The notes beneath the pieces are model-generated. The model saw only the letters and a list, made by a program, of their open reading frames with translations, searched no databases and had not been told where the DNA came from. Source: Antedon mediterranea (taxonomy: Eukaryota > Animalia > Echinodermata). Taken from it: DNA of 64,000 bases. Position numbers and translations under genes: made by a program. Within the stretch, counting starts at the first letter, position 1. Every line of letters starts with the position of its first letter. Of the stretch, positions 1 to 63,828 are shown in pieces. Where the stretch lies: positions 2,076,201 through 2,140,200 of the forward strand of contig NC_092679.1 in the NCBI RefSeq assembly GCF_964355755.1, given 5' to 3'.

Positions 1-199
1 ATTCAGTCCATGTAAAGACAAAATATATAAAAATTCCTATAGCTGATGACTTTTTTGAGCGACCAATCATTTTGTGTTCGTTCAGTTGCATCACAGCGGC
101 GAATTTAGTTTCAACTTATGATATATTCAACAGCCTACCACACCTAAAATAAACTGGTCACAATAAGATATTTTGAAAACATTTTGAAAAGTAAATTAC

Positions 200-981
200 C
201 GTAGCTTTCTCTGTATCATATTCTGCATTGAGCCATTGCTGCCATTTGCTTTGATCAACATCAGGCAAGTTAGGATAGTCAAAGAATGCAGCATGGGCTA
301 ACACTTCTTCACGTTCGTTGTTCAACGTCACAGCAAGTACAGACTTTTCGCTGTGAAAACAAAAAAATTTATAGTTCAATCTTATGCACTTGTCAATTGT
401 ATGACCCACTATACGACCCCCGGGAGAGGTGCGTCATGGATGTGTCATTTACAAATACTTACTGACACAGGGGTGCGTCAAAAAACCTAGATGGTACGTC
501 ACATCAATGAACAAGGTGTGTCAATGTCCGTCACTTTACCACCCACCATATCATAAACAACATGGTCACAGTGCGTCAAAATGGGTGCGTCATGGTCACC
601 TAAAGGTAAGTCACCTTTTTGACGCACGGGTGCGTCATGGTATTCAAAAGTATGACGCACATCGGACAAATGACGCACCTCTCCCGGGGGTCATATAGTG
701 GGTCATACAATTGACAAGTGCATTATATAGTAGATAAGATTTTTTAATTGAGTGTTTAAGTTTATTGTTACTATGGACAACTTCTTTTGACCTCTGACTG
801 TTGACCCTTTGAAAAGGTTAGAGACTTACATTAAGTGAACAATGTTAACTCTGCCGAATAATTGTTCTGTAGACGGTGAAACAAGTTTAATAATGTTTGC
901 TGCATCAAGTGATTCTGTTCGTCGAGCATTTATTACTTCACCTGACCCATTGGCAGACTTCAAAACAGCCGACGCAGCCAT
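200..981 (-). CDS. CFAP61: Cilia- and flagella-associated protein 61, first two coding exons (830-981, 200-350); gene continues off the left edge
   Basis: Spliced translation MAASAVLKSANGSGEVINARRTESLDAANIIKLVSPSTEQLFGRVNIVHLI/EKSVLAVTLNNEREEVLAHAAFFDYPN matches the CFAP61 N-terminus (RRTES.D, LFG..NI..L.EK..LAVTL.N, F.DYPN). Junctions are GT-AG and in phase. A likely non-coding first exon ends at a donor near 1351. Confidence 0.9.
385..722. mobile_element. Non-autonomous DNA transposon (MITE), ~53-bp TIRs, TTA target duplication
   Basis: 385-437 is the reverse complement of 670-722 with one mismatch. TTA lies on both flanks. The interior has repeated GTGCGTCA/TGACGCAC. Confidence 0.85.
767..781. 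promoter_or_regulatory. Candidate RFX X-box in a CFAP61 intron
   Basis: GTTACTATGGACAAC fits the X-box palindrome, in a ciliary gene. Confidence 0.45.
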
Positions 982-1414
982 GTTGTTTTCTTTTTCCTGT
1001 TTGAAAAAAAAAACATAAATCACATCACATTATTAATTATTTAGTCAGAAGTACCTACTAGGCCCTAGACTAACTAAGCTTAGTGCCTAGGTAGCCTAGG
1101 ACCTATGCACAGTGTCCTGTGGCCTACTCTAGGGAGAAACGAAGCTAGCAAGCAGATGCTCAGCGGGTTGAACGGCACCAAACCACCTTTGTCAACCCTG
1201 ATTTCAGAACGCTGACCGGCCTAACATTCGTCGATTTGTGGTTATTAAATTGGTAAGTTAAGCTTACAAAGGTGAATTTAAATAACGCTATTATATCTGC
1301 ATACATGATTAGTATAAGTTGTATAACCTTATTTATTCAAACACACTTACCGTAAGGTGATTTTCGTCCTTTTAACAGTATTTGTAAAGTGGCTTTTAAA
1401 ATACAACCGCCATT

Positions 1415-33472: not shown

Positions 33473-36400
33473 ATGGAAGTATTAAATGGTTTGCTCCTCC
33501 CCATCCTTCTTAGTTGTACTGTTTGTTATAGTTCTGATGTTCATCACATTCAATTGCAACCTGAACAAATACACTTATCTGCTACAGGTGTGTTTTAAGC
33601 TCTGTTTACACTATCAAAAAGAGTGTGATGTTCCCAAATATGGTAGTGAATATGTCCAAATATCAAGTCCATATATGGAAACATCACATTTTGTTGTCAC
33701 ATTAATTTGTAGACAGAGCTTCATTTATTTATCTATACACTCCTTGTTTTTAGAATTTATTTTTAAATAGAAACAAATAAATAAATATAGTTTTAAGCAC
33801 TAATCAGTTGTTTTGTAATTCCTCTATTGTTTCAAGATTTACATTTATTTAAAAAAAATATATCAATAATCATAAATTATGTTTATTATAAATTAATTCA
33901 ATATTGCGTGACCTCTCTTAATCATGTACCAAAGTGTGATTTATAAATTAATAATTTTGAATTACAAATCGAAATGAAATCAATTTAAACGCTAGACAGA
34001 TAGCTATCAGTATAAATATGCATAACTATAATAAGAATTTGCAGAAAAAAATTAAGTTTTATTTTATTAATTAAAAAAAATTGTTACTAGGAAATGCGGG
34101 TGAGATGATGGTTACGTGGAGCACAGTCAACGATACAAAGGCATCGCTGGTAAGGTTCGGCAAAAATATCACACTGAATTTAGTTGCCAAGGGAACTAGT
34201 AGTATATTCGTCGACGGTGGACCTGAGAAAAGGTCACAGTTCATCCACAGGGTCAAGCTAACTGGACTGAGCCCTGCACAAATGTATTGTAAGTATTTTA
34301 GTTTTATTTTTACACACAATATCATCGCACATTAAATTCAAATCATTTATACAGTATTTTTAAAAAATATATTTAATATTCATGATATAAAATTGAATGT
34401 AATTATGAATAAATGAATATGTAATTATGAATAAATGAATATGTAATTATGAATAAATGAATATGTAATTATGAATAAATGAATATGTAATTTGATAATT
34501 TTATAATAACTCACAAATGCTTAAGGTTTCAATAATAGATTTTTAGTGATAAAAAAATATTTAAAAAATAAATATTATTTTTATAATTTCAATTTATGAA
34601 ATAATATTTATTATTATTATTCAAAATTATTAATAAACAAATTTACAAATTCCAGATTATCATTGCGGAAGTGAAGACGGATGGAGTCCTCTATTCTTTT
34701 TTAAGGCTTTTCCAAATACCACAGACTGGAGTCCTCGATTCGCTATGTATGGCGACTTGGGAAACGAGAATGCACAGTCACTGAGTCGACTACAAGAGGA
34801 AGTACAGAAAGGAATGTATGACACTGTATTTCATATTGGTAAGTAATAAAAAAAATTGACAAAAGGAATGTCAGAAGAGCAACAAAACACACAAAGATTA
34901 ATAATAATAATAAGTATTTGCTTAGAATGTTTATAAATTGATTTGATGACTTTTGAATATATTTTGTTATTTAAGGCGACTTTGCATATGAATTGGAGGA
35001 GGATAATGGGCGAGTTGGAGACATGTTTATGCGTCAAATAGAATCAGTAGCAGCGTATGTACCGTACATGACGGCGGTAGGCAATCATGAAGCATCTTAG
35101 TGAGTCTCTCTTTGCAGTTTTAATTTAAAACTAAAAAAAAACAATGAGGAATGTTAAGTAATACCATATCCACCTACTAGAACACAAAATTGTGACAACT
35201 TTGGGGGTAGAACTATACCCGGGGAAAAAATTATTGGTAAAGCATTTCTTGTAAAAGCTGATATGAACTGGATAGAGAGAGAGAGAGGCCTACATCCAGA
35301 CCAAAAGTAAATACTGGTACTATATCCCCAGGGATATGCCAGTCTTAAAGTAGGGGGTGGGATTAAACCCGAAGTGGGATTATACCCAAGGATATAATGT
35401 GAGCTTTTTTTGCACCGTGAATGGGTTAGTTATTTTAGTTGGTACATACAATATTGTATCACATATATATGGGGTTTTTTTTCAGCAACTTTTCACATTA
35501 CAAAAATCGATTCACAATGCCAAATTTTGCAGAAACAGCGAATCTATGGTACAGGTACTGTAAACTCAGTTATTAATTGTTTTATCTACTTCCATCCGAT
35601 TGTCTGTTAATCATTCCCTTCATTCATTGATCAATACCAATCAATAATATTAATATTAATATTAATATGTCTTTGTGTTTTATATTATAATTAGTTGGGA
35701 TATTGGTCCAGCACATATCATTGTTTTCTCAACTGAGGTTTACTACTACTTTCAATACGGACTGTTTTTAATCACACATCAATTGAACTGGCTCAAACAA
35801 GACCTTAAAGCAGCCAATAAGAATCGAGCTGAACGACCCTGGGTCATCACGATGGCTCATCGGCCAATGTACTGCACCGACACTGATGGGGATGATTGTT
35901 CGAAACGTTACAACATTGTTAGTACAGTTTCATTTATTTTCTTTCATTAGCAATGCATGCATAAGTAAAATATTATTTTTATGACACTATTGTGATATCA
36001 TGAAATATTTTGGTCTGTCTACAAAGTCTCCAATAATCAAATTAATCTAAACAAAAGATTCAATTATTTGCATTGAAATATTCCTGTTTCAGTTTTAATT
36101 TGAATTTGTTTTTACAGATAAGGGATCAGTTTGAGGAACTGTTTTATGACAGTGGTATGTATGTCAATATTATGCGAACATAAAAGATTGTGAAGATCGC
36201 TTTCTGTATTGAACACCAAAGCTGTCCTGTTAGGCCACACCCCTTACATGGTAATACTGTATTATTGATTGCAAGAGTATAAAACTGAACTTATATTTCA
36301 ACCCTTATATTTTAATTTCTTCAGGTGTGGATATTGAGTTCTGGGCACATGAACACACCTATGAGAGGCTTTTACCTGTATACAAAGGAAAGGTATGATA

Positions 36401-37058
36401 GATAGAATCCCCATTAATATTCTTTGGCGTACAATTATAATAGATGTTTTGGTAAAGTATGTTTGTTTTGTTCCTGTATGTCAACAGTTGCATGTGAACA
36501 CAGAAAGTCAGATTACATTCAAAGTTAATATTTACATTTACAGGTGTTCAACGGTAGTGCTAGCGCCCCCTATACAAACCCCAACGCACCCGTGCACGTA
36601 GTAGCTGGTTCTGCGGTAAGTATATTGTTTCCATTCACCAAGTTACAATACAATCTCAAAGTCGCAAAGTTATTTAAAAAAGTTAACCCCTGCCCCATTT
36701 AATAGAAATAACTTGATTTTCAGGGTTGTAGAGAATTGCCCGATAAATTCACTCCAGTACCAGCTCCATGGGATGGGTTTCGTTCCCGAGATTATGGCTA
36801 TTTGACAATGACCGTGACGAACAAGACGCATGCTCACTTCCAGCAAATATCAGATGATCAGGTATGAATCCGTAAAAATTATTTCTGAAATTTTGACCTA
36901 AAAAATAGTTTTTGTCTAGAAAAAAAAATTGTGTTGTTTTTTTATAAATGTTATTATTATTTATACCTTTGAATTTCGTTTTCTAATTACAGGGCGGGAA
37001 GGTGATTGATGACTTCTGGGTAATAAAGCACAAACATGGACCTTACGGCTCGGATTAA
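33473..37058 (+). CDS. ACP7: Acid phosphatase type 7 (purple acid phosphatase), paralog a, 11 coding exons
   Basis: Signal peptide, then QPEQIHLS, VTWST, FIHRVKL, YHCG, GDLG, GDFAY, GNHE, AHRPMYC, AHEHTYER and DYGY. Exons approx. 33473-33587, 34091-34288, 34654-34838, 34976-35098, 35485-35553, 35695-35918, 36118-36154, 36324-36392, 36544-36615, 36724-36861, 36993-37058. Confidence 0.92.
33598..33720. mobile_element. MITE family A copy 10 bp inside an ACP7a intron donor
   Basis: TIRs and core. Confidence 0.8.
34397..34491. repeat. 22-bp minisatellite x4
   Basis: ATGTAATTATGAATAAATGAAT. Confidence 0.9.
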
Positions 37059-39152: not shown

Positions 39153-42100
39153 TTATTCGTATAATCCATGTCTGTCTTTGACTATCATCATGTTATCTAT
39201 AACTTTTCCATCCTAAAATACAACAAAAAATAAAAAACATATTCATTAACTTATATATTTGTCATTATATATCTAGTTTTTAGTACCTAATTATTTCCAA
39301 GCAGAAGTACTACGATCTTCCTCCTCCCCCTCCCCAATTTTTCTCAAACCCCCCGCCCCATTGCTTTATTTACCTGATTATCCGATACTTGCTCAAAGTA
39401 AAGGTGCGTTTCGTTGATGACATGCATTCTGCTGTAACCATAGTCCCTTGATCGGAAAGCATCCCAGTCCATCTTGCGTATTTTAAGCGGTGTTATTAGT
39501 TCCCGGTTTCCCTACAAAAAACACAAAACATTACAGCCCTTATGCTAATTGTGGATTTAAATATGCAATTCATTTCCTTTGTAAGATGATACTTACAGGT
39601 GAACCGGTTATTATATGAACAGGTGCGCCAGGGTTAGTATATGGATTTTCGTAGCTTCCATTGTACACCTAAACAAATGCAAAGACTGACTGGTAAGAGA
39701 AGACTAGCAAAACTTGTTAAGACACTATTTCAAATTCAAATATATACAAATACAAAGATGGAATAAAACTAATATGACTGTAGTTTAAAATAAAGTTAGT
39801 TATTTCAATGGGAGGTGAGCAAAATATTCCATGTCTAAAGCTACTCTCACTAAGAAAGTAGCAATACCGTTGCAAAGTGACTGGTGAGAAAAGACTAGCA
39901 GAGCTTTCAAACACTACAATTGACTTGTATTAATACACTCACTGTATTATTATAGACTGGATACATTCGTTCATATGCATGTTCATGGCCATATATCTCA
40001 AGATCAACTCCTAGAATAAGGAAAAAAATGTGAAAACTGCAACATTATTGTGTTTTATTATGTAAAAAGATTACATCATATCTTTACTTACAATAAGCAT
40101 ATACAGTAATATTACTTAATTTTTTTCTTATGAAAATTAAATTAAGAAATTAAATTGTCTACTTACCATACTTGTAAAATAGATCTTCAAAAGCTCCTCT
40201 TATCTAAAAATAATCAAATTCAGATTTATAGAAACAGAGCACGAAGAAAATTCACATAAAACTTAACTTTTAGAAATTAGGTCTTTAAAAATGTTCGTCT
40301 AAATATACTAAAACATAACCAAATATACTAAAAAAATATATACTAAACATAACAAAATATATTACCAAGGTTTCTCTTTTGTGACAATCCAGACCATAAC
40401 CTGAACAATACATTGGCCTATGACCTATTGTGATGATCCATGGCTGGTTCTTGCGATTCTTATTAGCTTCCTGTTTGGGGGAATAAAAAACAAACTATTA
40501 AAAGTCTAAATAAATATAGTATTACCAAATAAAGGTCTTTTCTTGTTATTATTATCATATACTGTACATTATTTTCAGTTTTGTTATTTCTTTTACTATG
40601 CATTGTTTAAGTATCCTGTACTTTTTTAATCACTGATTAAATTGTTTTCATGACAACATTTTAGTTTTGTTTCTGAATTTTTTTTAAATTTATCATTATT
40701 CTTGAATAACATTCAGATTATGGCGGACAAGTTGAGCATAAACTAATCACCTTTAGGTCTTGTTCAAGCCATTGAAACTGTTCATCAATGAGAAATTCAC
40801 CATAATCTTGGTAGAAGATTACCTCAGTGGAGAACGATATAATATGAGCAGGACCTATGTTCCAACTACAACAAATAATTGATAGCACATTAACCACATG
40901 TTTTAACAAAACAACAAGATTTTGAAATAGGGATGTGGCAAGCCTAATAATTGTTAAACAAAGCACTAAACTTAAACTCATTTTCTTTTGCATTGTATTT
41001 TCCAAGATTTAAACCGATGTATGAAATAATTGTTTTAAAACTGAATTGAAGATGTAAAGTACCTTACCTAAACCACAAGTTCTCAGTTTTTTCGTACATT
41101 GGCATAGTAAAACGATTCTTGTAATTGGAAAAATTACTGCAAATAAATCAAAATATACAAATTAATTAAGTGGGTTGAGCATTCATTGTACAGGTGTTAG
41201 TTCATAGGTCATTCATAGGTTCATATGTCAGAGGTGGACAACTTACTATTTTTGTTCATGGTTCCCAACACACGTCATGTACGGAACATAAGCGGCAATA
41301 GCTTCTATCTGACGCATAAAATCATTTCCTACCTTCCCGTTCCGGGAATCTAAGTCATATGCAATATCACCTAATTTAAGGAAAAGAAATAAATACAAAA
41401 AATCACATTGAATTTCAAGGATATATTCAACATAAAATATTCAAATCAATATAAAGCTCTGTCTACACTATCACTAGTTTGACAAAAAAAATGTGATGTC
41501 ATATCACTTCCATATTTAAGGATATCACTATCATATTTTGTCAAACTAGTTTGATAGTGTAGACAGAGCTTAAGAGTAACTAATAGTTATTATTTTCAAC
41601 ATCATTATTTACCTACCCACATGGAGCACAGCATCATAGAGTCCACTCTGTGTCTCACGTTGAAGCCTCATCATTGACCGGGCATTAGCGTTTCCTAAAT
41701 CACCATAAACTGCAAATTTTGGACTCCAACTTTTGATAGGTTGGCTGTGAAACCAAAATATTTGACTCCATCCTGATGGTCCTCCACAATGGTAAACTAA
41801 AAATAAATAAATTTGTTTGTAGTGTGTAGCAAAAATCAGAAATTATACTAGATATTTCAAAATAGAAAACAATTGTCACATACAGTATGCTTTATCTGGT
41901 TCAAGCGCAGTCAATTTGACCCGATGTATATATTGCACTCTTTTCATTATTCCTCCGTCTACAAATGTTGTAGTCATTCCTGTTGCGTTTTTGTTTAGCT
42001 TTAAATCTTGGCCATACTCGACTACTGGTATCGTATCTATCATGGTACTCCATGTCACCATCATCTCGTTAACTTTATCTATAAAAAAAGGTTTTCATTA

Positions 42101-43269
42101 TTAATAATAATAATAGTTCATTCTTATATAGCGCATATAAGCAAGTTCTCAATGCGCTGCACATTATTACCCTGGTCATTTTTTAGATCAAACACGTATG
42201 GAAACATATACTCCTACAATAATGCAGCTAGTAATCAGCGCAAAGTTGTGTCTTGGTTTTACTAAAATAGTAATGAACGCAAATAATTTGACTAATCACT
42301 AGTGTAGTAGCAGATCTTCCAAAATATGTGATTGATGTCGCTAGTATTATGCAACACGCGCATTGTAGGCCTACTGAGAAACTTTAGATGGGGTCCACTA
42401 CTGGACCAATGGAAAAGAATAGAGCGCAGCAATAATAGGCTATGTAAAATATGTAATATAAATGAAGTTGAAGATGAATATCATTTTGTTACGGTTTGCT
42501 CTCGTTACAAGGAAATCAGAAAAAAATTTATACCTTCTTTATTTTTTGAAAATCCAAATTCTGTCGTTTAATGTCATCACAGGATCCAAAAATTATTGAT
42601 AATCTATCCGAATTTATCATGTAAGTTAAGATATATGTTTTGCTTAGAGAACGAAATTAATTAATTCATTTATCTTGTGACCATAAATTGCTTTATTTTT
42701 CAATATAATTATTAGTTTGTTAATTACTAGGGACCAGAGGCCTAAACTTAAAGTAAATAAAGTCAGGCGATAAGCCTGAATGAATAAATAAACTGGCAAC
42801 CTCTACAACCAACAACCACTGAAAAAGGTATCTGAGGCTCTTCTTTGTAAAAAGATAGACTAACAAATTTAAAAACTAAATTAATTTATTACATTAATTA
42901 TTATTAAATCAAAATTGATGAAGACTGATCCATTTAAAGAATTAATATGACACGAAAATTGCAGTGCCTTGTTTTTTACTGTATTATGGAATTAACCTTT
43001 CCTTTTTACCCTTCACAAATCCTTCCGGTCGATTTTATAGGAGGCGGAATGGGTGAAAATGAGTCACAACCCTCCCTACCTTAGTACCTAGGCCTTTCTT
43101 AGGCTCATCACACATAACGGTGCCTATATTAATAATTATGCCTTGCCTTTCCTCCCGTGGAAAATTACTTACTTGTAAAAGACAGGTGAATTTGTTCAGG
43201 ATAAACATCATCTGCTTTGCAATCAGATAAAATAAAATAATTTACAAAAACAAGCAGTATTATCAACAT
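39153..43269 (-). CDS. ACP7: Acid phosphatase type 7, paralog b, 12 coding exons
   Basis: MLIILLVFVNYFILSDCKA signal peptide, then YPEQIHLS, GDLG, GDIAYD, GNHE, GHRPMYC and GHEHAYER. Exons approx. 43173-43269, 41884-42078, 41618-41797, 41247-41371, 41068-41137, 40751-40866, 40366-40470, 40168-40204, 39942-40011, 39597-39668, 39375-39512, 39153-39212. Confidence 0.92.
41455..41570. mobile_element. MITE family A copy, TAA target duplication
   Basis: Full TIRs, TAA/TAA flanks. Confidence 0.85.
42100..42260 (-). mobile_element. SINE/L2-type 3' tail fragment
   Basis: Minus strand AGCGCATTGAG...GCGCTATATAAGAATGAAC(TAT)n. A similar tail lies at ~63460-63515. Confidence 0.5.
42370..42792 (+). mobile_element. 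LINE 3' fragment with C-terminal CCHC finger (RTE-X-like)
   Basis: RLCKICNINEVEDEYHFVTVCSRYKEIRKKF, ending in AATAAATAAA. Confidence 0.65.
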
Positions 43270-43420
43270 GTTACTTTTTACTACAAACAAAATGTAAAGA
43301 AACGCCCTCAAACAAGTACACGTTCTCGTCTCGCTTGATTGAGTTTGTTTTGGTTTTTAAAAATGTTCAATGATCGCGGCACACAAAATTTGTGAAATTT
43401 AAAATTAATACAAGATTTAA

Positions 43421-46487: not shown

Positions 46488-47173
46488 ACTTTCATACTAA
46501 AATACACAGACAGTAACAGAATACATGTATTATATTTATTCTCTGTTCAATAATTGACAATATAAACATACTTTACATTTTCGTAACGTGTGTAATAAAC
46601 CGTACAGTAATACTTAACATATAAACCCGCTTTGCAACCACCAATTACAAACGACTGATCGTCCTAACTGTCGCCTGTGATTGGTCAAAATTATTGCGTC
46701 GCGTGTACGTCCATACTATAATAACTTATATAATTTAGAAGCACAAACGAAATTCCAAATCACAACTTGAAACTTTGATAATTTTAAATCAACTTAAAAA
46801 CTGTGTTTAATTTCCGAGAGCGTATAATAATGGTGCTGGAATGGAATAATACGAGACAGATAAATAAGAAAAATATACATAAAACAATTAAGTTCTAGTT
46901 TAAAAAAAGCTAATACATAAGAATACATATTATTTTTGTATATTTTCAGACTCTTATGGGCATTTATGCTTTATTTATGTGATTTGTTTTGTCACACAGA
47001 TATAGTCCGATGAATCACATGATTGTTTATATTTTTCATCTGATATTTTGAATCGCACATATTTCGGTTTCTTCTGACGTCATTTTCATCTGTTTAATGA
47101 TATTGTCCGTTTATTTTTATTTTAAGTCACTTGATGACGTCACTTGTATGCATTCTCATTTCAGTAGGCCTCT

Positions 47174-50100
47174 CTAAGTTTGTGTTTTTTTCATTGACAA
47201 CTTCTTGAGTGCGTCCACTATCATCTTCTTGGATTCCTGGTTATTTCCACTCCGAAGGCCCTTCAATTCATTTACGACCGTGTCCTGTAACATAGCAATA
47301 AAGCAACAGTAAATCAACCAATGACAGTCTCTTAATTCTTGCTATGATAAATCAGATAATCTTTCAAAAAGTCAATCCGATCTTACAATAAACCAATGAG
47401 GCTGACTGAATCAATCACTTGCCCAGTCAATCTTGAAGTCAAATCTCTGTATAGAGGCCCTATCGCCAGATATAAATTTAAAGCTTAGGTACAGGCATGA
47501 ATTTTAAATTTAATATTTGGTTAATTGTACATAAATCAAATATTTGTAACAGAAATCGAGACGAAAAAACATGAATTTCACTTAATATGGTCAAATACAA
47601 ACTTTGGCAAAATTCTTCCATAAAAACCAGGAAGACTTTTTTTCAGTAGTTAGGTAGTTAACCTAATGTATAACATGTCTGGTGACTCCCTAGACGGTGA
47701 AAAAAGATGTGGATAATTTTGCTATAGCATGAAAATAAATTTTGAAGTTTTTACCACACCGTTTATTTTTCATAGCTTTTTAAAATGCCTCTCTATTTAC
47801 AAAATGTGTGTACACAAACGAATAGATATTTTACTGTGTAATTTGAACTATCCCCCCACTGATAAGAAAGTGCTTATTTTCAACAAACTCGTGTAACACA
47901 AATAAAATCCCAAAAATTATGAAGCATAGGGGAAACTATAGATCGATAATTATTGGAATGTATGATCAATAGAAATTTTTTGCCCGCACCTGGCCTTTAA
48001 AAGCATTGTACAGGCAGGGAAGATAATGCAATTTCACTTTTCCCTGGTATAGGCCTAGCCTCCTCAATCCACGCATACAAAATGAAACAAATATTATATG
48101 TTTCTTTAAATTAATTTGTATTATGTTTAATATCTTGATGTTTTGTAAATTCAAAAATATATTTATAAATATGTTATTTACAAGTAATATTAATTATTAC
48201 AAAGGAGCAGTTTAATTTGAAATATCAAGTTTCGTTGCCATTTAGAAATGTCCGATGCAAAGAACATTGCCCGACATTCGATCCGACAATCGACAGAACC
48301 AATTTGGCGATTCACAGTTTGTTTTTTTTTTGCAAAATTGCAAATTTTCTATTATCAAGAAAACGGCTCAATTACAGTATAATAACATGTGTACATTGTT
48401 ACACGCCTTAGGTGTCTATTTCATGCGTCAAGTTCAATATTTATTTTTAGTATATTAAGTTCTATCGGTCACCGAAAGTTTAGCTATATTAATTAGAAAA
48501 TAATATTGTTAAAAATAGCTGATAGTGTACCCATCTACGAAATGGTAATAATACCGGAAATATCTTGGGAGCTTGGCTCACACTTTGGAGACGCAACGCA
48601 ATGACGTAAGCGCAAGGTAAGCTATTTGACCAATCGCAATCAATATATTATATTCAACCTGTCGCTTGAAATTGTTCCTCGCTTGAGTTGCGCTTACGAA
48701 CCAAGCCTAATCCTTCGGAACGCGGTTTGAAACCACCAGCACACAGTTAATTGAAGAATTTTACATTAAAGATGTATTGTCTCCACAAAAACATGAAAAA
48801 TGAAGATTATTAAAATCAAACCTCGAATATGCCATTTTGTAATTTTAACAAAGTTAATTACTTCCGTAGAAAAATATCCAGAAAAAATAATGTTTTCACT
48901 TATAAAATGACAAAATAAACAGTTAAATTCAATCAAAAACCCATTGGCTGGCAGCCAATTTGACTATTTTTTGCTCCAAATTACAGTTTTTTCAGGTAAA
49001 TAATTTTTTTTCTCGATTTTTGGTGAAAGTGAATAACTATTATGTGACATTAAAATGGCATATTCAACAAACAAATTGTAAAAATTTATTTTTTCAGGGG
49101 GACAATACATCTTTAAAGTAAGATTGTACCGATTATCTATTTAACGCATGCGCAGTACTGCAAACTGTTCAATCTGATTGGTCGATTGCTGCAGCCATAT
49201 TGAACGGTTTCTCTCCATGGTTACTATAGCTTTTGAGCTTTTGTATTGTTTGGCCGTCAAGCTCCTTTGATATCATCACTACGATTTGTATTAATACTTA
49301 ATCTTACCTTTATGTTTTCATTACTTCCCGAAAGATCTTGTTCGTTTTCTTCTTCGTTGTCAGATGAAAATGATGACGAATCTTGGTTGTCGTCTACTTG
49401 TTCGTCTTTAAGTACAACCTCAGGTTGTCTTTTTACATCATCGTAAAATTCATTGTTCTCATTACCTTCTCGTATTAAATTATCACCAGTCTTTTCAAAA
49501 TTATTATTTTCTTTTATTTTTTGGTTTGTTTGAAAGTTATTGCTGATTCTATTAGATCTTCCTTTACTTCCAAAGTTATGTGTATTCATTGCCATATGCT
49601 TTTCTTCTGCTGGTATTTCACTCGCAGAATCATTCCCATTTTCCTCTGCTGGTGTTTCGCTGGCAGAGTCTTCTCCATTTTCCTCTCCTGGTATTTCGCT
49701 GGCAGAATCTTCTTCATTCTCCTCTGCTGGTGTTTCGCTGGCAGATTCTTCTCTATTTTTTTCTGCTGGTATTTCACTCGCAGAATCTTCGCCATTTTCC
49801 TCTGCTGATGTTTCGCTGGCAGAGTCTTCTACATTTTCCTCTGCTGGTGTTTCGCTGGCAGAGTCTTCTCCACTTTCCTCTGCTGGGATTTCACTCGCAG
49901 AATCACCTTCATTTTGTTCTGCTGGTGTTTCGCTGGCAGAATCTTCTCCATTTTCCTCTGCTGGTATTTCACTCGCAGAATCTTCTCCATTTTCCTCTGC
50001 TGGTGTTTCACTCGCAGAATCGTCCCTATCAATTCCATCTTCTGTATTCTCACTGTCGTCAACTTCTTCGGTGTCTTCTGCAGGCGTTTCACTGGCGGAA

Positions 50101-53100
50101 TCTTCTGCAGGCGTTTCACTGGCGGAATCTTCTCCATCAGTTTCCTCTCCTTGTAATTTATTTTGTTCTGCCGGTGTTTCACTTGCGGAATCTTCTATGT
50201 TAGCGTCATCGGTATCTTCTGCCGGTGTTTCACTTGCTGAATCTTCTATGTTAGCGTCATCGGTAGGCCTATCTTCTGCCGGTGTTTCACTTGCGGAGTC
50301 TTCTAAGTTAGCATCATCGGTATCTTCTGCAGGAATCTCACTGGCTGATTCTTCATCATATTCCTCGTCACTTGCTGAATCTCCATTTATAAGCTCTTGT
50401 TTATTATTCCACGTAAATGATGAGGGTTTGTTTTTCAGTCCACGAAATTCACCCGGTTTTAACTCGTTGTAAAAGTCCTTCACTGAAATATATAGCAATA
50501 TAAATTTAGGTTACAAGACCAGTTATATTTTTCCATAAGTGATGTAATACATAAGACAGATGCAATATGGCCAAAGCAATCGGGAATAAGATGACTAACT
50601 TGTTAACTTACTTCGATCAGCTGGAGTTTTTTCTTGTCCTCTATTATTTTGTTTCGTGACGTCATTTTGTTCCAACATTTCACCAGGTATCAGATCTTTA
50701 CCTGTAGAAAATTTGAGACATTGAGACAAATAATAAATAAGTTCCCTTTTTATAATTGTTGTTTGAATCAACATTTTACTGTTAAATAAGATTGTTGCTG
50801 ATATGACTCGCTGCATAGTTCATAGTTCATCAGTCATGCGTTATTACAATTGATATTTTACCATTATTTACTTTATTCTTATGTAAGGCATACGTGTAAT
50901 TTAAATGTATCTATAATAAAGGTATCTATAATAATATACAGAATACAAATTATATTTTCATCCAATCACCTTTGGCCAACTGATTCTGGTTGTTTTGAAG
51001 TTCTGCGACCCATTTCAAAGTTTTCTGAAGCTTCTGATGTTCAAACTCCAAAGCTTTTAATAGATGATACAGGACATTATCTACAGTGTTCTTCCATTCG
51101 CCCGAATCTGGTAGCCATCCACTAACACTGCTCTCTCCTTCTGCAAGAGCACCGTCTCCACTACCTTCATCCTTATTCCTTTTGCTCTGAACGACGGAAG
51201 GCGAACTATCGCCCAATTCTTTTACGTATTTCATTGCTGCAAAGAAAGTGCCGTAACATCATTAACAAATAATAAGAAAATATCTTATAGGTGTTCCAGT
51301 TTGCTGACATTGTGGTCCTGCTGACTTTGCCCAAAATACGTTTACAAATTGTGAAGTGAATTGACTAGAGAACAATTTTTGATTAATTTTTGAAGACTAT
51401 AAATTAATAATACGCCGCTAAATTATATTCTGAATCTGAAACAAACATTTGTAAACCGTTTTATAAGAGCTGTTATAAAATGTTATGTAATATTGATTTT
51501 ATTTTCATTGTTATGTTACATTCCTGATTGAAATAGCTTTTAGAATTCAACATGATACTGGTTTAGATGAAACTCTAATCCTTATGGCATATCGATTGCA
51601 GTGATGTTAAAGCCAACTGTCAAATGTGCACATACTTATGCAACAGAAATATGATGTATTACAAGAATGGTTTTGATAATGTAGGAGGCTTAACACCAGT
51701 GTTGAGAAACACGGCGGTAGTAAAAATAAAGCTTGGTTCCAACTAGGACGTAACGCAAACGTAAGCAATTTGATAAATGACAAGCGATAGATTGTTTTGA
51801 ACTATCAGGGTCAACTCGCTTGCGTTGCTCTTACGTCCCTGCGTTGCGTGGTTGTAGGAAACAAGCGTACGTCAACGACTGCGTGACGAATAAGCGTAGT
51901 TCACCGACCACCATGCTTCAACAACGCCAGAGCCATATATATGGCTCTAAAGCGTGGTTCCCACTAGCGACGCAACACAAGGACGTAACGCAACGCAAGT
52001 GAATTGACCAATCACAAGCGATGGCTTATTCGCTTGTGATTGCTAACTGTCTATAACTTCGCTTGTCATTGGTTGAAACGCTTGCGTTGCGTTTACGTCC
52101 TTGCGTTACGTTCTAGTGGGAACCAAGCTTTAACAACGCAACGCAAGGACGCCGCGTAACGTAGGATTGGACCTATCAAAAGACGGTTCGGATAATAACT
52201 ATTATTTGGAATTTCTGATGATTATTGATGACAACACGGATCCATGATAACAGAATGCAAAGGATGCAGATGATGATGATAATGGTACCGTATTTCGATA
52301 ATTTAATTCATTTCAAAATCTTACCTCCGTTTACCATTTCAAGACACTCTTCACTTACACCCGAGAGGTCCATTTGGTGTGATTTTTCCTGCTGTGCTAT
52401 CAATCTTATGACATCAGCAGCGCAATTGTTCAATTTCTAAAAGAAGAAAATGTAATAATAATGTCAATTATTTCTTACTTTCTTCTTTAGGCCTATTGTA
52501 TTTAGAACATTTTAGCAGGGAAAACAATTTTATTTTAAACTAAAATAAATCCTACTCCAAAAATAAATTGCAATATCGCGAAAAAAGGAACAAATACATT
52601 TATTTTTGTTTTCTGTGCTTCCATGATATTAATAGTCTTTTTATGCTTTGCTTGTTTGTTTTCTTGTCTGTCTGTCTGTTTTGTTTTGTTTCTGTACGTT
52701 AAATTAAACATCAATATGATGTTTTTCTTAAAGATTCAAGATTCAAACTTTAATCTAATCCATTTCTGGAAATTCCATTGCTTGCATTAAAAATTACAGA
52801 ACAGCAATTACAATACAATTGAAATTACAATAAAACTTATTGGATATATGTATATCACCGGGCGGTTTCGAATTAATGTTCATTGCCTAATGTGTTTTTA
52901 TATATATAATATGTATAAATCCAAAGGCAAATTACTGAAAAAAATGACAATGCTGTGGGTATTAGTGGCCGGATCTCAATGAAGATACAAAAAAAAGAAG
53001 CGAAAAGCTAAATCAAAACGATAAAGTAAAACAGCCAGAAAAGTTAGCAGAGCTATATTCAATAAACATAATAGCTATAATAAATTTTAGCTATATAAAC

Positions 53101-56100
53101 AATAAAATGCAAACTATTTACAGTATATTTCTCATAATTATCATCGTTTGTAATTGTTGTTAAAAAGTGTAATGGCTTGTGGAGAAGGAAGGAGAGAAGA
53201 TATCGTTCAGTGCGGGAGGCCGGCAGACGATATCTCAGTAGGAGAAAGGAAGGAGAGAAGATATCGTTCAGTGCGGGAGGCCGGCAGACGATATCTCAGT
53301 AGGAGAAAGGAAGGAGAGCAGAATCGTTCAGTGCGGGAGGCCGGCAGACGATATCTCAGTAGGAGACCTTCAAATTGTATTGCTTTGCTTTGCGTCTTTA
53401 TTATATATGTCAACATTTTTATTTTTGTTACCTTGAAAAAGAAAAAGAAATAAATGTTATTGATTAATTGATTGATTGATTTATTGATTGATTTATTGAT
53501 TGATTTATTGAGTGAGAATATTTTGTTTTTTCATTTTATATGTAATATTACTTTCATACTATAAATTCTACTTTAATAATAGACATAAATCGTGTATCAC
53601 GTTACTTATAGATGAAAGCTTCTAGCTAGCTTTTAGGCCTCTAATATGTTTTCCAAATGTCTCGTCAGCTTATCAATTAGTCGCGATGACTGGTTCTGCT
53701 GCCACATCCAGTCATTCACTACATTAGCTGATGTTTTGACATTGGCCTAGAAAACTGTCATGGTTTTTTCTTGATGAGCCATTGGTCATAATTGTTGACA
53801 ATGTTGTATATTAGACGCATCTATCACTCAGTCGTTGCCTTTTCTTCATTTAATTAATTGTTTTAGTATTCATAATCATGATTCACTCACTCATTAAAAT
53901 GTTGTTATTCAGAACTAGCCTATTTTACCATTCAATATGCACAGTATTATATTTATTGATTTATATATAAACAGAATCATACAATAAGATGCGTTATAAT
54001 AAAATGTATCCTAATTTATGTTCCGTTTTCTATGATGTATTCGGTTGTTAACTGTACTTTTATTGTACGGCCTGTACAGCGTTCTTTTGCTACACATTTT
54101 GACTTTAATGGCCGCCCATAATATTCGTTATATTAGGCATAATAATTTCATACTATATATGTTGATATGCTTAATCCCATTCTTTATCACTATGTGAGGT
54201 GTCATCTTCGTGAATATAACCTATTTCTTTGCATAGATTAATCATTACTTGTTCTTTGTATGAATATCCTAATGTAATGAAAGCTCTGTCTACACTGTCA
54301 AATTTTATTTGAAAATATATGAAATGATAGTGATTATATGTTATATGTGATGTGCCCATATATGGACACGATGATGTCATATCCCACTACCATATTAAAG
54401 CATACCACTACCATATTTGGGCACATCATATTTTCCCTTTGGTCAAATTAGTATGATAGTGTAGAGAGAGCTTAAAACTAGATTTAAACTCGCCATTTGG
54501 GACGAGTTAAGTTATCAACGCAAACGCAAAAGCAAAATGCACTGCGTCCAACGCTAAAAAAATGCGCACAGAAATTAATTATGCCATCCTATGACCTTAA
54601 GTAAATATATTCTTAAATTATTCTGGTTTTCCATTTGACAACAATAAATAGTAATCACATCCAACGTATAAGAATATATGACAGACAGGCCGACGATCGA
54701 CACAAGTTTAATAAAACATAATACTGTATTGATAAATAAAAAACGCAACTGACCAATAATTTCCAAGGGATAACAATGAATGGGAGGGGTTGGGTGTGTT
54801 TAGTTGGCACGGCAAAACCTGGCTTTTTTAAATCTCTCATTAACTTATTGATGATATCCTCGTGCATTTTCAAGGGGGTTGTCCTCGTTTATCCACCAAA
54901 CGTCTCCTTTTCTGCTTCTTCTTCTTTCGAAAATATCATAAATCGATATAAAACATATTCTAACCAGGAATTCTGTTAAGCGTTCCATCCTTGGAAAATA
55001 AGTAATTTATGTATGTATTATTCAGAATCAGTTTCCCGCTAATTCGTACAATTTTCTCGAGTAATTGAGTGTCTTTTCTAACACCGCTGTTACTTAATAA
55101 TAACTGTAAATGTATATGAATCAGCAGCGTTTTAGTGATTTTGTGCTAAAAAAGAACAATAACCCTTTCATTTACCATGGCTTATTCATGAATTGTAAAA
55201 ATATTCTATTAATATATATATATGTTATATAATATTATAATACCGCTGTTTTCGCAGGGAAAATGTTTCAGCGTGTAATTTCTTGCTATTTTCTGCCAAT
55301 ATAGCAGTTGAAGAATAATATATAGGCCTAAGGTTTATTCTTTTATATTAACCATAATAATTTCATATAATCAGATTTAAAAGTAGGCAGAATGTATTTA
55401 AATGGTAGGAAACCTCAACAATTATAATATTATACACCACTGTTTTCTCGGGGAAAATGTTTTAACATATACGCTAATTTTTTCTGCCAATAACAGTGAA
55501 AGAATAAAGGTTTATTCTTTTTCTTTTTAAACATAATAATTGCAGGTTAAAAAGTAAGCAGAATGTATTTAAATGATAGGAGGCCTGAATAATTAGAGTA
55601 TAAATCGCTCGAAGTCTATCTACTTAGAATCGTAAACCACTTTTTAACGATGTTATGAGTAATAATGAAGATAATCAGTCGTCGGATTATGATAGGAATT
55701 ATTCAAGTAGAATTTTTATTGTAATAATTAAAATGCATTAGGCCTACTCGAGCGGTATCTAGACTTGCCCCAAGTCTGTATTTATTGTCTTTTTTATTTT
55801 AGTCCACCAGTCGACGTTTCGATTTTTGTCTGAAAATACAACCTCAAGTATAGTATACGTATGTGCCAAAATATTTATATTTTTACTAATATTAGGTCCG
55901 TCTGGAACCCAGACTATAGAGCGGTATGTTGATTGTGCTCTTTCTTACAACAATCTTCATCCCATGGGGTACTGTGGGCTAGTCAGTTTTATAGTGAGAG
56001 TATTACTTAGTATAGGGCCTAAGCCTGTTTCCGTCAGAAGACACGATACTGCAGAATGATTATTTTCACTAGATATGATACTCGAATCGACTGGATTCAG

Positions 56101-57203
56101 GCAAGTATAAAAACCCCCTTCTATTCGTATTCTGACTCGAGTTTCAGAAATAATATTTCTATATCGTGGTTTTTAAGCACTTATTAGATTGCGAAAACCC
56201 ATGATCAATCCTATGCAATTAATGTAACTTGTCAGATCCTAGTCATATAAGGGTCCGTTACTGTTGAGAAATTGCTGTAAGAGGAATTTTATGCAAAGCC
56301 TTCTCTACAAACATAAATCCTTGTCACATAAAGGCAAGACGTATAATGTATTGATAGGCCTACAACGCAGCTGACGATTTGAACTAGAACCTTTTAAAAT
56401 GTAGGCAACACAGAAACGAAACCATAAAGAGCAGTTTTGTAGCATAATGTCCCTTCCTTAAACTCATAAATACCAATTTCTACCCCACTCCAAGCTTACC
56501 ATCAGACGTTATAATAAATGTACAAAACACTCTGATTTGAGTTTAATATGCTGGAGTTCAGGATAGAGAGAAGAGAAGTGGGCGGAGCTCAATTTATCTC
56601 AAACACAGAGTACTGTTCTACGTTAAAACAATAGTTCATGTTTAGCATTTGAATAGCTAACAATAGCCTTATACACTCGGAATCTTGCAATTAAATTCTT
56701 CAAATGTTAACTCCGACATTCGGAAAATTAGGCCCAATACATACATTAATCAATTGTTGAGATACAATAGTCACGATATATTGCACAACGTACATTGTGT
56801 ACTGAAGTCACCAATTCATTAATTTGTAATATAAACAGATGGCTTTCCTTTAATTAATAACCTTTTTATATGATATAATAACCCTTTTATATAATATAAT
56901 TATGCTCCCCTTTTAAGTTAAAAATTACATTAGGCTGTCACGCATGATTGATTAACAACATAAAGAATTCGTCACAAATTTATCAAACTTTCTATGTTAT
57001 TATGCATATCTACGGTAATTCGTTAAATGCTTTTAAGGCTATAGTATGTACATTTATCGTGTAACGTGAACTGAACTTAGATGGCCCTAGAAATCCTCAA
57101 TTATGAGTAATGTATAATGAAAAACATGAAACATAGCTTACCGCATCTGTCGTGTCAGTGCCTTCCGCAACTCCTTCCGGTTCAGATACTGGTTTCCCAT
57201 ATC
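47174..57203 (-). CDS. Acidic secretory-type protein, candidate chromogranin A/B (granin)-like; signal-peptide exon not found in the window
   Basis: In-phase exons 57142-57203 (phase 1-0), 52325-52436 (0-1), 50970-51236 (1-1), 50612-50701 (1-1), 49308-50482 (1-0) and 47174-47284 (0-stop) give ~605 aa. There are exactly two Cys (CAADVI...VSEECLE), a very acidic central repeat and KR/KK sites. The gene model is well supported; the family call is inference. Confidence 0.7.
48015..48046. mobile_element. 32-bp CAGGG...CCCTG insertion, 7-bp target duplication (6/7)
   Basis: GTACAGG|CAGGGAA...TTCCCTG|GTATAGG. Confidence 0.65.
48770..49112. mobile_element. Non-autonomous DNA transposon with TTAA target duplication (Kolobok-like)
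   Basis: TTAA|AGATGTATTGTCTCC ... GGGGACAATACATCT|TTAA, a 14/15 TIR, plus an inner inverted GAATATGCCATTTT/AAAATGGCATATTC. Confidence 0.8.
51951..52129. mobile_element. MITE family B copy
   Basis: Full-length 179 bp. Older degenerate relatives lie at ~51730-51866, ~48570-48709 and ~11737-11899. Confidence 0.9.
53181..53365. repeat. ~61-bp GC-rich tandem repeat x3 with internal hairpin
   Basis: GGAGAAAGGAAGGAGAGAAGATATCGTTCAGTGCGGGAGGCCGGCAGACGATATCTCAGTA. An (ATTG)n tract follows at ~53459-53510. Confidence 0.9.
54282..54472. mobile_element. MITE family A copy
   Basis: TIRs and core, with an extra AT-rich internal segment. Confidence 0.8.
55225..55595. repeat. Imperfect ~190-bp tandem duplication
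   Basis: CTGTTTT...GGGAAAATGTTT...TTTCTGCCAATA...AGGTTTATTCTTTT...GCAGAATGTATTTAAATG occurs twice. Confidence 0.8.
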
Positions 57204-57668
57204 CTAAAAAAACAAATCATTATTAAATTTCATTTCAATCATAAAATACGATAAGTATAAAACAAAATGTAATGTACTGTACTGTATACACAGACTAAAC
57301 GTCAGGCTGTTGTAGTGGTACCCGAAGCTAAGTTCACTTTTATTTTTTGTTAATAAATTTATGAACCTATACATTAGATAGGCTCATGATTTTACCAAAT
57401 ACCCGAGACAACATTGTTGAGATGAAATTGTTTTCACATTAATTTATATTTATACTTTGTATTTAATTTTGTCAGATTATAATATAATTTGTCATTGTGT
57501 AGGCATACAAAAGATCACCACATTTGGAAACAACGATACCGATTAATTTTATATCTCAATTCTTCATTGTGTTATAACAAAAATGTTCTCGGCAACAATA
57601 CAACTTTGATCTGCTACCAGGAATGGTACCAGGATTTTTTTTAATGTTTTAATTTAACAAAGTTGTTG

Positions 57669-57881
57669 AGCTCTGTCTACACTATCAGGCCAGGGAGTTG
57701 TTACTAATAACAACTCCCTGATCAGGCTTTATGTGACAAAAATGTGATGTACAAGTCAAATATCAAATTATGGTAGTAATACGTCAGTATGCTTAAATAT
57801 GGTAGTGATATGATATCATCATGTCCATATTTGGGTACATCACATTTTTTTGTCACATAAAGTTTGATAGTAGACAGAGCT
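57669..57881. mobile_element. MITE family A copy carrying a nested 30-bp hairpin element
   Basis: The left TIR is interrupted at ATCAGGC by 57691-57720. Confidence 0.8.
57691..57720. mobile_element. 30-bp CAGGG...CCCTG hairpin, perfect 7-bp target duplication, nested in MITE A
   Basis: ATCAGGC|CAGGGAGTTGTTA-CTAA-TAACAACTCCCTG|ATCAGGC. Confidence 0.85.
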
Positions 57882-61950: not shown

Positions 61951-62551
61951 TATTTTTAATTACACTTAATATTGATTGTGACCGGTGATAAATTAGGCGA
62001 TAGACTTGAACAAGTATATTAGAAAATGTTGTTAAATATTGCTAATGCCGGAGGAGCAACGTTAAGTCATAGGATTATATTACTTCATATACACATACAA
62101 ATCCAATGTTCAATTATTCGAGCACGAACCGGGTGGTAATAAAATAATTTGACGGCGTAATTAATATTTTCAATCAACACGTCTGTATTGGATTATGTAC
62201 GATGAATGGCAAACATGAATAACAAGCGTACAGACCGAAGGTTGGTTAGTAGAAATAAAAATGTTGACATTAAGTCGTCAACAAGCCTATTAAAAACAAC
62301 AATATATAGATATTTAAACTAGCAATATATCTTTAGCGTTAGAGTTGCATACATATGTCAATATATACACTGTAAGTATATTAAACAAGGCCATATACAT
62401 GGCTGCAGTCGATCGCGTGCGCAAATTTGAGTTAGTGTTTACCAACCGACCAACCGACCGACTAAAAACAAGACCACTCCGATGGCCAAGGTTCCAGTTT
62501 CTTTATAATAAGAAAAGTGCTCTTTCCTTTTTTTTTATGTTATTATTCTAA

Positions 62552-62673
62552 AGCTCTGTCTACACTATCAAACAAAAAAAGTGTAATGTGCCTAAATATG
62601 GTAGTGATATGACAACATCTATCCTGTCCATATATGGGCACATCACATAAAATTTGATAGTGCAGACAGAGCT
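62552..62673. mobile_element. MITE family A copy, TAA target duplication
   Basis: Full TIRs, TAA/TAA flanks. Confidence 0.85.
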
Positions 62674-63168: not shown

Positions 63169-63517
63169 TATTTTTAGGAGCTACCTTACAATGCCAATTG
63201 ATAATTGCAAAATATCTTCTTTTCTGTTACCATTCCCTTTGTAAAATTAGGCATTACTGGTCTCTGTGTTATGCTGTTGTGCTGAAAATGGACCTGTCAT
63301 ATATTAGCTTCCACTAGAACCCTAAATTCATTACGCATCCTCCCCCCCCCCCACCCACCCCACCCCACTCCCTCAAATCCGTCGTCCCCTAAACACCAGC
63401 TTTCAAATATTTCAAACGATATTTGAAATAACAAATTGAAATTGAAGCTATAAAAATCATTATTATTAATAATAATTGTCCTTTTTATAGCGCCTAATCA
63501 AATTAAATTGTCTCTTA

Positions 63518-63697
63518 AGCGTGGTTCCCACTAGCGACGCAACACAAGGACGTAACGCAACGCAAGTGAATTGACCAAATCACAAGCGATGGCTTATTCG
63601 CTTGTGATTGCTAACTGTCTATAACTTCACTTGTCATTGGTTAAAACGCTTGCGTTGCGTTTACGTCCTTGCGTTACGTTCTGGTGGGAACGAGGCT
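63518..63697. mobile_element. MITE family B copy, TTA target duplication
   Basis: Full-length, TTA/TTA flanks. Confidence 0.9.
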
Positions 63698-63828
63698 TTA
63701 ACGCGCTACGAACTAGATGGAAATTACGTCATTTCATATGCTATGCGAAAGAGATGGGTTTTCAGCAACTGTTTGAAGATGTTAATATAATTGGCATTCT
63801 TGAATGATTGTGAAAGAGTATTTCATAA

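What the first reader, a model, noticed from the sequence alone, without database searches (positions are those of the whole stretch)
47174..57203. Candidate invertebrate chromogranin A/B (granin) gene hidden across small exons
Seen: six in-phase exons encode GYGKPVSEPEG..TDA | KLNNCAADVIRLIAQQEKSHQMDLSGVSEECLEMVNG | AMKYVKELGD..SKR.. | a short exon | a 391-codon highly acidic exon with VKR | a short helical last exon DTVVNELKGL..ESKKMIVDALKKL. The only two Cys in ~605 aa sit together in one phase 0-to-1 exon. Established (from memory): vertebrate CHGA and CHGB have a small phase 1-to-0 exon 2 holding the mature start (LPV/MPV; here KPV). Their phase 0-to-1 exon 3 carries the single disulfide loop (CHGA VMKCIVEVI..VSQECFETLRG), followed in CHGA by LLKELQD. 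Then come phase-1 internal exons, a large acidic exon ending in phase 0, and a short conserved last exon. Inference: this is a divergent CHGA/CHGB homolog, a family generally regarded as vertebrate-restricted at gene level. That would push dense-core-granule granins further back in evolution. Caveats: the loop has 25 residues between Cys versus 20, the C-terminal granin signature is not matched, and the signal-peptide exon is not in the window.
Basis: partly seen in the sequence, partly recalled or inferred. Interest (0 to 1): 0.9.

Follow-up and report, generated by a model that had tools for sequence, protein, structure and literature searches.

The report
Feather-star candidate ancestral chromogranin gene
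This is a real, spliced feather-star gene for a strongly acidic protein with a predicted signal peptide and one cysteine pair, and its exon layout and gene neighbours suggest it is likely the invertebrate counterpart of the vertebrate chromogranins, the proteins that pack hormones into secretory granules.

Summary
The gene is real. Six GT-AG exons give an open 605-codon frame identical to an Antedon mediterranea RefSeq protein. RNA contigs join the exons and add an upstream signal-peptide-like exon. An Anneissia orthologue keeps both cysteines, two KR sites and a 42-residue helix.

Homology to chromogranins is likely but not shown by any database search. Pfam, a 1.84-billion-protein HMM search, the ESM Atlas, PDB and Foldseek gave no granin hit, and no relative outside crinoids appeared.

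The case rests on three converging lines:
(1) Both cysteines lie in one small third coding exon, as in CgA and CgB.
(2) By eye, 8 of 21 residues around the cysteines match published CgA; only 5 of 21 do in Anneissia.
(3) New here: the gene's neighbours are ACP7 and CFAP61. In mammals these lie beside RINL and RIN2, paralogues of RIN3, which is a neighbour of CHGA; ACP7 is four genes from CCER2, recalled as a third chromogranin.

Against: a loop of 25 rather than 20 residues, no contiguous C-terminal granin motif, a KELGD match not kept in Anneissia, and no expression data. Homology about 0.75; homology plus granule role about 0.62.

The parts
57142..57203 (-). Coding exon 2 (62 nt, phase 1 to 0): end of the predicted signal peptide and predicted mature start K-P-V (K-P-L in Anneissia; CgA starts L-P-V)
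   Evidence: cleavage site inferred by eye and hydropathy, SignalP not available
52325..52436 (-). Coding exon 3 (112 nt, phase 0 to 1): the only two cysteines (C45 at 52424, C71 at 52346); predicted helix-loop-helix with an inferred disulfide; 25 of 37 residues identical in Anneissia
50970..51236 (-). Coding exon 4 (267 nt, phase 1 to 1): conserved KR site (K96-R97) and the best-conserved segment, a 42-residue predicted amphipathic helix at 51096-50971 (33 of 42 identical in Anneissia)
50612..50701 (-). Coding exon 5 (90 nt, phase 1 to 1), poorly conserved linker (8 of 30 identical)
49308..50482 (-). Coding exon 6 (1175 nt, phase 1 to 0): acidic low-complexity region with 17 [DE]-S-A-S-E units (39-nt tandem array at 49600-50021) and a second conserved KR site (K547-R548)
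47174..47284 (-). Last coding exon (111 nt, phase 0): short basic-amphipathic C-terminal segment and stop
46694..47173 (-). 3' untranslated region covered by the spliced RNA contig; AATAAA at 47121, 47115 and 46975
39353..43284 (-). Neighbour used for synteny: acid phosphatase type 7 (ACP7)-like gene, the nearest identified gene downstream
34090..36861 (+). Neighbour: second, divergent ACP7-like copy
158..1026 (-). Neighbour used for synteny: 5' exons of CFAP61
   Evidence: PF16092, E 5e-14 and 2e-05

Best explanation
This is a spliced crinoid gene for a strongly acidic protein with a predicted signal peptide and a single cysteine pair, likely descended from the same ancestral gene as vertebrate chromogranin A and B, and it would likely act as a matrix and sorting protein of dense-core secretory granules. 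Shown: the gene structure, the splicing, the crinoid orthologue, the conserved blocks and the neighbouring genes. Inferred steps, by analogy with CgB (PMC2132667): (1) the signal peptide routes it into the ER and is cut before K-P-V; (2) C45 and C71 form a disulfide that staples two amphipathic helices into a loop that serves as the granule-sorting signal at the trans-Golgi; (3) the acidic repeat region, probably phosphorylated or O-glycosylated, binds calcium and condenses at low pH, with the conserved 42-residue helix aiding self-association and carrying peptide or amine cargo along; (4) prohormone convertases cut at the two conserved KR sites and release an N-terminal fragment of about 73 residues (K23-S95) comparable in size and content to vasostatin-I (CgA 1-76), and a C-terminal fragment of about 76 residues. 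I put homology at about 0.75, and a granule role given homology at about 0.8.
For: Architecture: both Cys lie in one small separate exon, the third coding exon if the upstream coding part is one exon. In CgA and CgB the loop is encoded by a separate exon 3 (PMC2132667). In CHGA exon I carries most of the signal peptide, exon VII is peptide-rich and exon VIII carries the C-terminus (PMC12074958). Sequence, counted by eye against CgA 8-47 and 1-76 as printed in PMC8131715 and PMC9452953: 8 of 21 non-Cys positions in the two Cys half-sites are identical in Antedon (binomial 2e-5 to 3e-4, windows chosen after looking) and 5 of 21 in Anneissia (0.007-0.035). The mature start has x-P-V, and the conserved exon-4 helix holds H-Q-x-L-x-K-x-L, matching CgA 54-61 at 5 of 8. 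A first KR falls 73 residues after the predicted mature start, where CgA yields a 1-76 fragment. Conservation is concentrated in the Cys exon and the helix, not in the acidic middle. The AlphaFold model gives helix 35-59, loop, helix 69-86, the helix-loop-helix shape also modelled for CgA 8-47. Synteny: the window reads CFAP61, three GCPII/NAALADase-like genes, a PCC gene, two ACP7-like genes, then this gene. The Anneissia ACP7-like protein and the orthologue both list a longest contig of 1,043,403 bases. In mammals RIN3 neighbours LGMN, GOLGA5 and CHGA; Rin2 lies with Naa20, Crnkl1 and Cfap61; and sheep chr14 lists RINL, SIRT2, NFKBIB, CCER2, SARS2, MRPS12, FBXO17, ACP7. A rough chance for two such neighbours is 2e-4 to 5e-4 genome-wide.
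Against: No granin family in Pfam at E up to 10, for the six exons or for both whole proteins. The HMM search of 1.84 billion representatives returned 3 proteins: the two crinoid ones and one unrelated-looking repeat protein. Both word-based searches with this gene returned only the same two. No usable Atlas feature hit in 2 of 2 searches; no granin chain among the PDB sequence rows of 3 of 3 searches; no Foldseek match at E 0.001. No orthologue was found in sea stars, urchins, hemichordates or amphioxus. The loop has 25 residues between the Cys, against 20 in a 22-residue loop described as highly conserved. Three of the 8 Antedon identities are absent in Anneissia, and one of them (V67) is read as Leu in run X1 (C>A at 52358). 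The helix 8-mer match is weak once look-elsewhere is allowed (0.07-0.23) and has two possible registers. About 50 extra residues separate loop and helix. The last exon matches CgA's C-terminal E-L-x-x-L only with a long insertion, there are only 2 KR/RR sites against 8-10 dibasic sites in CgA, and the serine-acidic repeats look as much like a mineral-matrix protein. If the neighbours merely stayed on one ancestral linkage group, the synteny chance rises to 0.10-0.19. The model is low confidence (mean pLDDT 45.8). Vertebrate intron phases and the CCER2-chromogranin paralogy are recalled, not tested; by that recall the 5' edge of the Cys exon is one codon off.
Confidence: 0.62

Rival explanations
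1. An unrelated, crinoid-specific secreted acidic phosphoprotein of the calcite skeleton or an adhesive matrix; the resemblance to chromogranins is convergent, because signal peptide, small phase-1/0 exons, amphipathic helices and acidic tracts are common in secreted proteins.
For: Only crinoid relatives were found. 17 [DE]-S-A-S-E repeats, with 103 acidic residues in a 265-residue stretch, resemble mineral-binding proteins (recalled). No family or fold hit.
Against: It does not explain the joint occurrence of the sole-Cys exon, the identities at both Cys half-sites, and ACP7 and CFAP61 as neighbours. Two KR sites are kept in both crinoids.
Confidence: 0.2
2. A true chromogranin homologue by descent that has been repurposed in crinoids as a released extracellular effector, for example in skeleton or in the mutable collagenous ligaments, rather than acting as a general granule-matrix protein.
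For: Same homology evidence as the best explanation. The repeat expansion, the longer loop and the few dibasic sites depart from CgA.
Against: The best-conserved parts are the loop and helix that in CgB and CgA are tied to sorting and peptide release. No expression data either way.
Confidence: 0.13
3. A conventional neuropeptide or hormone precursor unrelated to granins, whose active product is the disulfide-bridged N-terminal or the helical fragment, with the acidic part as a spacer.
For: Signal-peptide-like N-terminus, conserved KR sites and conserved short blocks.
Against: No conserved Gly-Lys-Arg amidation site at either KR (contexts), very long spacer, and it is not found among the crinoid precursors of PMC9793003 (no 'granin' in the text; no GYGKP or XP_033104016 in 7 supplementary files).
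Confidence: 0.05

Closest known systems
Chromogranin A (CHGA)
   Same: Signal peptide mostly in exon 1, x-P-V mature start, a single Cys pair in its own exon 3, D/C..[ED]VI and [VM]S.EC half-sites, amphipathic helix in the next exon, large acidic penultimate exon, short last exon, about 75-residue N-terminal fragment before a dibasic site.
   Different: 7 coding exons against 8; loop of 25 against 20 residues; about 50 extra residues before the helix; 2 KR/RR sites against 8-10 dibasic sites; tandem serine-acidic repeats; no contiguous C-terminal motif; no profile-level match.
Chromogranin B (CHGB, secretogranin I)
   Same: Loop in a separate exon 3; similar length (624 aa here; CgB peptides are numbered to at least 653); one very large acidic exon before a short last exon (recalled).
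   Different: Two extra internal exons here (CHGB's five exons recalled). No CgB loop sequence was available from a call (0 papers held the motif), so it was not compared.
[quoted passage not shown]
   Same: Lies four genes from ACP7 in the sheep gene list, as this gene lies next to ACP7; used as a marker of neuroendocrine Merkel cell carcinoma.
   Different: Its kinship to chromogranins is recalled and echoed by an unchecked earlier AI finding; no sequence was available, so nothing was compared.
Secretogranin V (7B2), the granin already known in echinoderms
   Same: Secretory-granule protein reported in sea urchin neurons (PMC6209648).
   Different: A convertase chaperone of a separate family (recalled); no Pfam match to it here.

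Membership tests
Chromogranin A/B | N-terminal signal peptide | tested here: met
   Hydrophobic core at residues 8-19 (Kyte-Doolittle 11-mer 2.68) in P0003 and 2.62 in P0002; supported by the RNA contig. Hydropathy only, no SignalP.
Chromogranin A/B | Acidic, hydrophilic, largely disordered chain | tested here: met
   D+E 26-27% in both proteins; Atlas model mean pLDDT 0.35-0.38.
Chromogranin A/B | Single N-terminal Cys pair encoded by its own exon 3 | tested here: met
   2 Cys, both in the 112-nt exon, kept in Anneissia; vertebrate state.
Chromogranin A/B | 22-residue loop (20 residues between the Cys) | tested here: not met
   25 residues between the Cys in both crinoids against Cys16-Cys37 and Cys17-Cys38.
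Chromogranin A/B | Sequence similarity in the loop | tested here: inconclusive
   8 of 21 (Antedon) and 5 of 21 (Anneissia) identities by eye against CgA printed in papers; no vertebrate sequence could be aligned with a tool.
Chromogranin A/B | Match to the Pfam Granin model | tested here: not met
   No granin family listed at E up to 10 for the six exons or two whole proteins; HMMER filters drop most matches above about 0.1.
Chromogranin A/B | Contiguous C-terminal granin motif | tested here: not met
   Against the CgA C-terminal peptide, only E-L-x-x-L matches by eye and the second half follows an insertion of about 10-15 residues.
Chromogranin A/B | Multiple dibasic processing sites | tested here: inconclusive
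   2 KR sites in Antedon, both aligned to KR in Anneissia, which has 6 KR/RR matches; CgA has 8-10.
Chromogranin A/B | Same intron phases and positions | not testable with these tools
   Crinoid phases 1,0,1,1,1,0 are shown; vertebrate phases are recalled only.
Chromogranin A/B | Position in the conserved RIN paralogous segment | tested here: met
   ACP7 and CFAP61 are neighbours; mammalian lists. One side of the gene only; RIN paralogy taken from the names and recall.
Chromogranin A/B | Storage in dense-core granules of neurons and endocrine cells; calcium- and pH-dependent aggregation | not testable with these tools
   The one RNA-like run is coded and held as contigs.

The most novel reading that the evidence does not exclude
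The chromogranin A/B gene predates vertebrates: a single ancestral deuterostome chromogranin survives in crinoids, still next to ACP7 and CFAP61, and vertebrate CHGA, CHGB and CCER2 are its duplicated descendants. Granin-based packing of dense-core granules would then be older than chordates, and synteny gives a way to find the gene across invertebrates where sequence searches fail.
Probability: 0.65. Interest if true: 0.85.

Novelty: new variant of a known kind. Interest (0 to 1): 0.74.

Why it matters
Chromogranins are central to hormone storage and are clinical markers, yet invertebrate CHGA/CHGB genes are generally not recognised (recalled; my searches listed no paper whose title or abstract start reports one). 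A gene-level homologue in the sister group of all other echinoderms would date the family to the deuterostome ancestor. It would show which residues of the sorting loop have lasted, give a marker for echinoderm neurosecretory cells, and supply a synteny handle (ACP7, CFAP61, RIN) for finding the gene in amphioxus, hemichordates and beyond. RefSeq calls the two proteins 'uncharacterized' and 'enolase-phosphatase E1-like', so the link is hidden in current annotation.

Tried and rejected

Searches without a granin or non-crinoid hit: Pfam on exons and whole proteins; word-based homologue searches with exon 4 and with residues 18-165 (2 hits of 85 and of 250 candidates); HMM search of 1.84 billion representatives, whose third hit P0004 is a repeat protein matching only the low-complexity stretch 101-130 and was rejected; ESM Atlas twice; PDB by sequence three times; Foldseek on a low-confidence model, uninformative; metagenome scan, 0 of 130 stretches confirmed. 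A listing of weak hits above E 10 was not possible.

Rejected: the KELGD = LLKELQD match (absent in Anneissia); the 'enolase-phosphatase E1-like' name (no such Pfam domain); RefSeq isoform X2, which lacks the hydrophobic N-terminus, as the main form (the RNA contig matches X1; no X2 first exon found in the window).

No listed run is on record as RNA, so tissue and level could not be read. No complex prediction was run.

Papers: passages only were seen for PMC6209648, PMC9793003 (plus a term search of 7 supplements), PMC4992253 (plus supplements; one PDF not readable), PMC12074958, PMC11591336, PMC2132667, PMC6238609, PMC12623243, PMC7207206, PMC8131715, PMC9452953, PMC3661923, PMC4063697, PMC6386750 and PMC12511514. 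PMC3591675 and PMID 27717682 were not held. PMC5787515 (amphioxus, one mention of chromogranin) was seen only as a search listing and may bear on novelty. The classic granin evolution reviews are in journals not searched. None of the three papers read for CCER2 described its sequence family.
Full report
Observation. They give 605 open codons with two cysteines, 25 residues apart, both in the 112-nt exon, and 26.6% Asp+Glu. The model equals the last 604 residues of RefSeq XP_071962719.1 of the feather star Antedon mediterranea, named 'uncharacterized protein'.

Transcript. Of five listed runs, X1 holds 0.34 of the words of 47000-52600, about the exonic share. Its contigs skip the introns: a 961-nt record carries 57142-57204, 50968-51236 and 50213-50482, with spacers that fit the 112-nt and 90-nt exons, and an 873-nt record joins 49307 to 47283 and runs on to 46694. 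The loose end at 57142 is the start of the Cys exon. The loose end beyond 57204 translates to the hydrophobic stretch found in RefSeq isoform X1 and is absent from the window. This is one run of one study, and the repeat region is not bridged by a single contig.

Relatives. Only one orthologue was found, XP_033104016.1 of Anneissia japonica (644 aa, 48% identity). Conservation is concentrated in the Cys exon (25 of 37), a helix at residues 125-166 (33 of 42), residues 197-225 (17 of 29) and the signal region (12 of 19); both KR sites are kept. A second word search and an HMM search of 1.84 billion representatives added no credible relative. Pfam, the ESM Atlas, PDB sequence search and Foldseek gave no granin match. 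With two sequences and a 37-residue diagnostic region, these searches need about 35 bits and could miss a true distant homologue, but they give no support.

Comparison with chromogranin A. No vertebrate granin could be brought into the tools, so I compared by eye with CgA 8-47 and 1-76 as printed in PMC8131715 and PMC9452953. Anchored on the cysteines, Antedon matches D at -6, V at +4 and I at +5 of the first Cys, and V at -4, S at -3, E at -1, E at +2 and G at +6 of the second: 8 of 21, binomial 2e-5 to 3e-4 before any correction for windows chosen after looking. Anneissia keeps five of these (0.007-0.035), and run X1 reads Leu at the -4 position. A better candidate for the helix that follows the CgA loop is H-Q-x-L-x-K-x-L in the conserved exon-4 helix (5 of 8), but this is weak after look-elsewhere (0.07-0.23). 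The loop is five residues longer than the 22-residue vertebrate loop. The last exon matches the CgA C-terminal peptide only in E-L-x-x-L, then an insertion. AlphaFold gives helix-loop-helix over the Cys exon and a long helix at 124-166, at low confidence (mean pLDDT 45.8).

Gene structure. Papers confirm that the loop of both CgA and CgB is encoded by a separate exon 3, and that CHGA has the signal peptide mostly in exon I and the C-terminus in exon VIII. The crinoid gene has the same order, with seven coding exons if the upstream coding part is a single exon. From memory, not from a call, CHGA phases are 1,0,1,1,1,1,0 and CHGB 1,0,1,0, with the third intron six codons plus one base after the second Cys, exactly as here, and the second intron one codon nearer to the first Cys than here. 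With assumed phase frequencies the shared 1,0,1...0 pattern has a chance of 0.02-0.03.

Downstream of the gene lie two ACP7-like genes (34.1-36.9 kb plus strand, 39.4-43.3 kb minus strand), a PCC-domain gene, three GCPII/NAALADase-like genes and the 5' end of CFAP61. The Anneissia ACP7-like protein lists the same longest contig length as the orthologue, 1,043,403, so the linkage is probably shared. In mammals, RIN3 has the neighbours SLC24A4, LGMN, GOLGA5, CHGA and ITPK1 (PMC4063697). Slc24a3, Rin2, Naa20, Crnkl1 and Cfap61 were assayed as genes of the mouse Insm1 region (PMC6386750; a primer list, not an ordered map). Sheep chromosome 14 lists RINL, SIRT2, NFKBIB, CCER2, SARS2, MRPS12, FBXO17, ACP7 (PMC11591336). 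So two of the three neighbouring families with mammalian orthologues sit beside RIN paralogues, and CHGA sits beside a third. I recalled CCER2 as a chromogranin-like gene before the look-up (note); an earlier unchecked AI finding says the same; I could not test it. A rough chance for two such neighbours is 2e-4 to 5e-4 genome-wide, or 0.10-0.19 if they are assumed to share one ancestral linkage group. These are order-of-magnitude figures with assumed inputs, and only one side of the gene could be read.

How it most likely works. By analogy with CgB, whose loop is required for sorting into secretory granules, the protein would enter the secretory pathway, form the C45-C71 loop, condense through its acidic region with calcium at low pH, and be cut at the two conserved KR sites. 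The first cut would free a 73-residue disulfide fragment comparable to vasostatin-I. All of these steps are inferred. The main rival is a convergent crinoid acidic matrix protein (0.20); a repurposed homologue (0.13) and an unrelated peptide precursor (0.05) follow.

Membership and novelty. Three defining features were tested and not met: loop length, the Pfam model and the contiguous C-terminal motif. I therefore do not file it as a member, but as a likely divergent homologue. Searches for chromogranin with echinoderm, amphioxus, lamprey, invertebrate and CCER2 listed no report of such a gene, judged from titles and abstract starts of the rows shown (25 of 66, 15 of 15, 13 of 14, 20 of 23, 40 of 532, 40 of 95). 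The crinoid neuropeptide survey does not contain it by term search. Subscription reviews were not searchable, so absence from print is not proven.

Verdict. Observation confirmed; interpretation partly supported and strengthened by synteny; homology about 0.75, homology with granule function about 0.62; interest 0.74.

Noticed in passing
window 2859-14541 (-), 16927-22966 (+), 23434-30515 (+): Three tandem glutamate carboxypeptidase II / NAALADase-like genes (PA, M28 and transferrin-receptor-like dimerisation domain hits); the minus-strand copy has a Thr/Pro-rich stalk after its hydrophobic segment.
   Followed up: partly
window 31429-32052 (-): A PCC (PF03479, 'plants and prokaryotes conserved') domain gene split by introns in an animal.
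   Followed up: no
window 34090-36861 (+) and 39353-43284 (-): Two ACP7-like genes facing each other, about 55-70% identical over exons, with a 30-bp tandem array of 23 copies (38276-38975) between them.
   Followed up: partly
upstream of window 64000: RefSeq lists an isoform X2 with a short first exon and no hydrophobic N-terminus; neither first exon was found in the window, so intron 1 exceeds 6.8 kb. X2 had no support in the RNA contig.
   Followed up: partly
window 52358: Run X1 reads C>A on the plus strand, turning Val67 in the Cys loop into Leu; one contig, depth 55.7.
   Followed up: partly
PMC4992253 supplement 1: In the cichlid Astatotilapia burtoni CHGA and CHGB are both listed on scaffold_19, about 1.9 Mb apart, which bears on how the two genes duplicated.
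   Followed up: no
window 51727-52132, 63516-64000, 57795-57871, 62546-62648: High-copy dispersed repeats with inverted-repeat-like ends in the introns (depth in the tens of thousands in both runs), probably miniature transposons.
   Followed up: no
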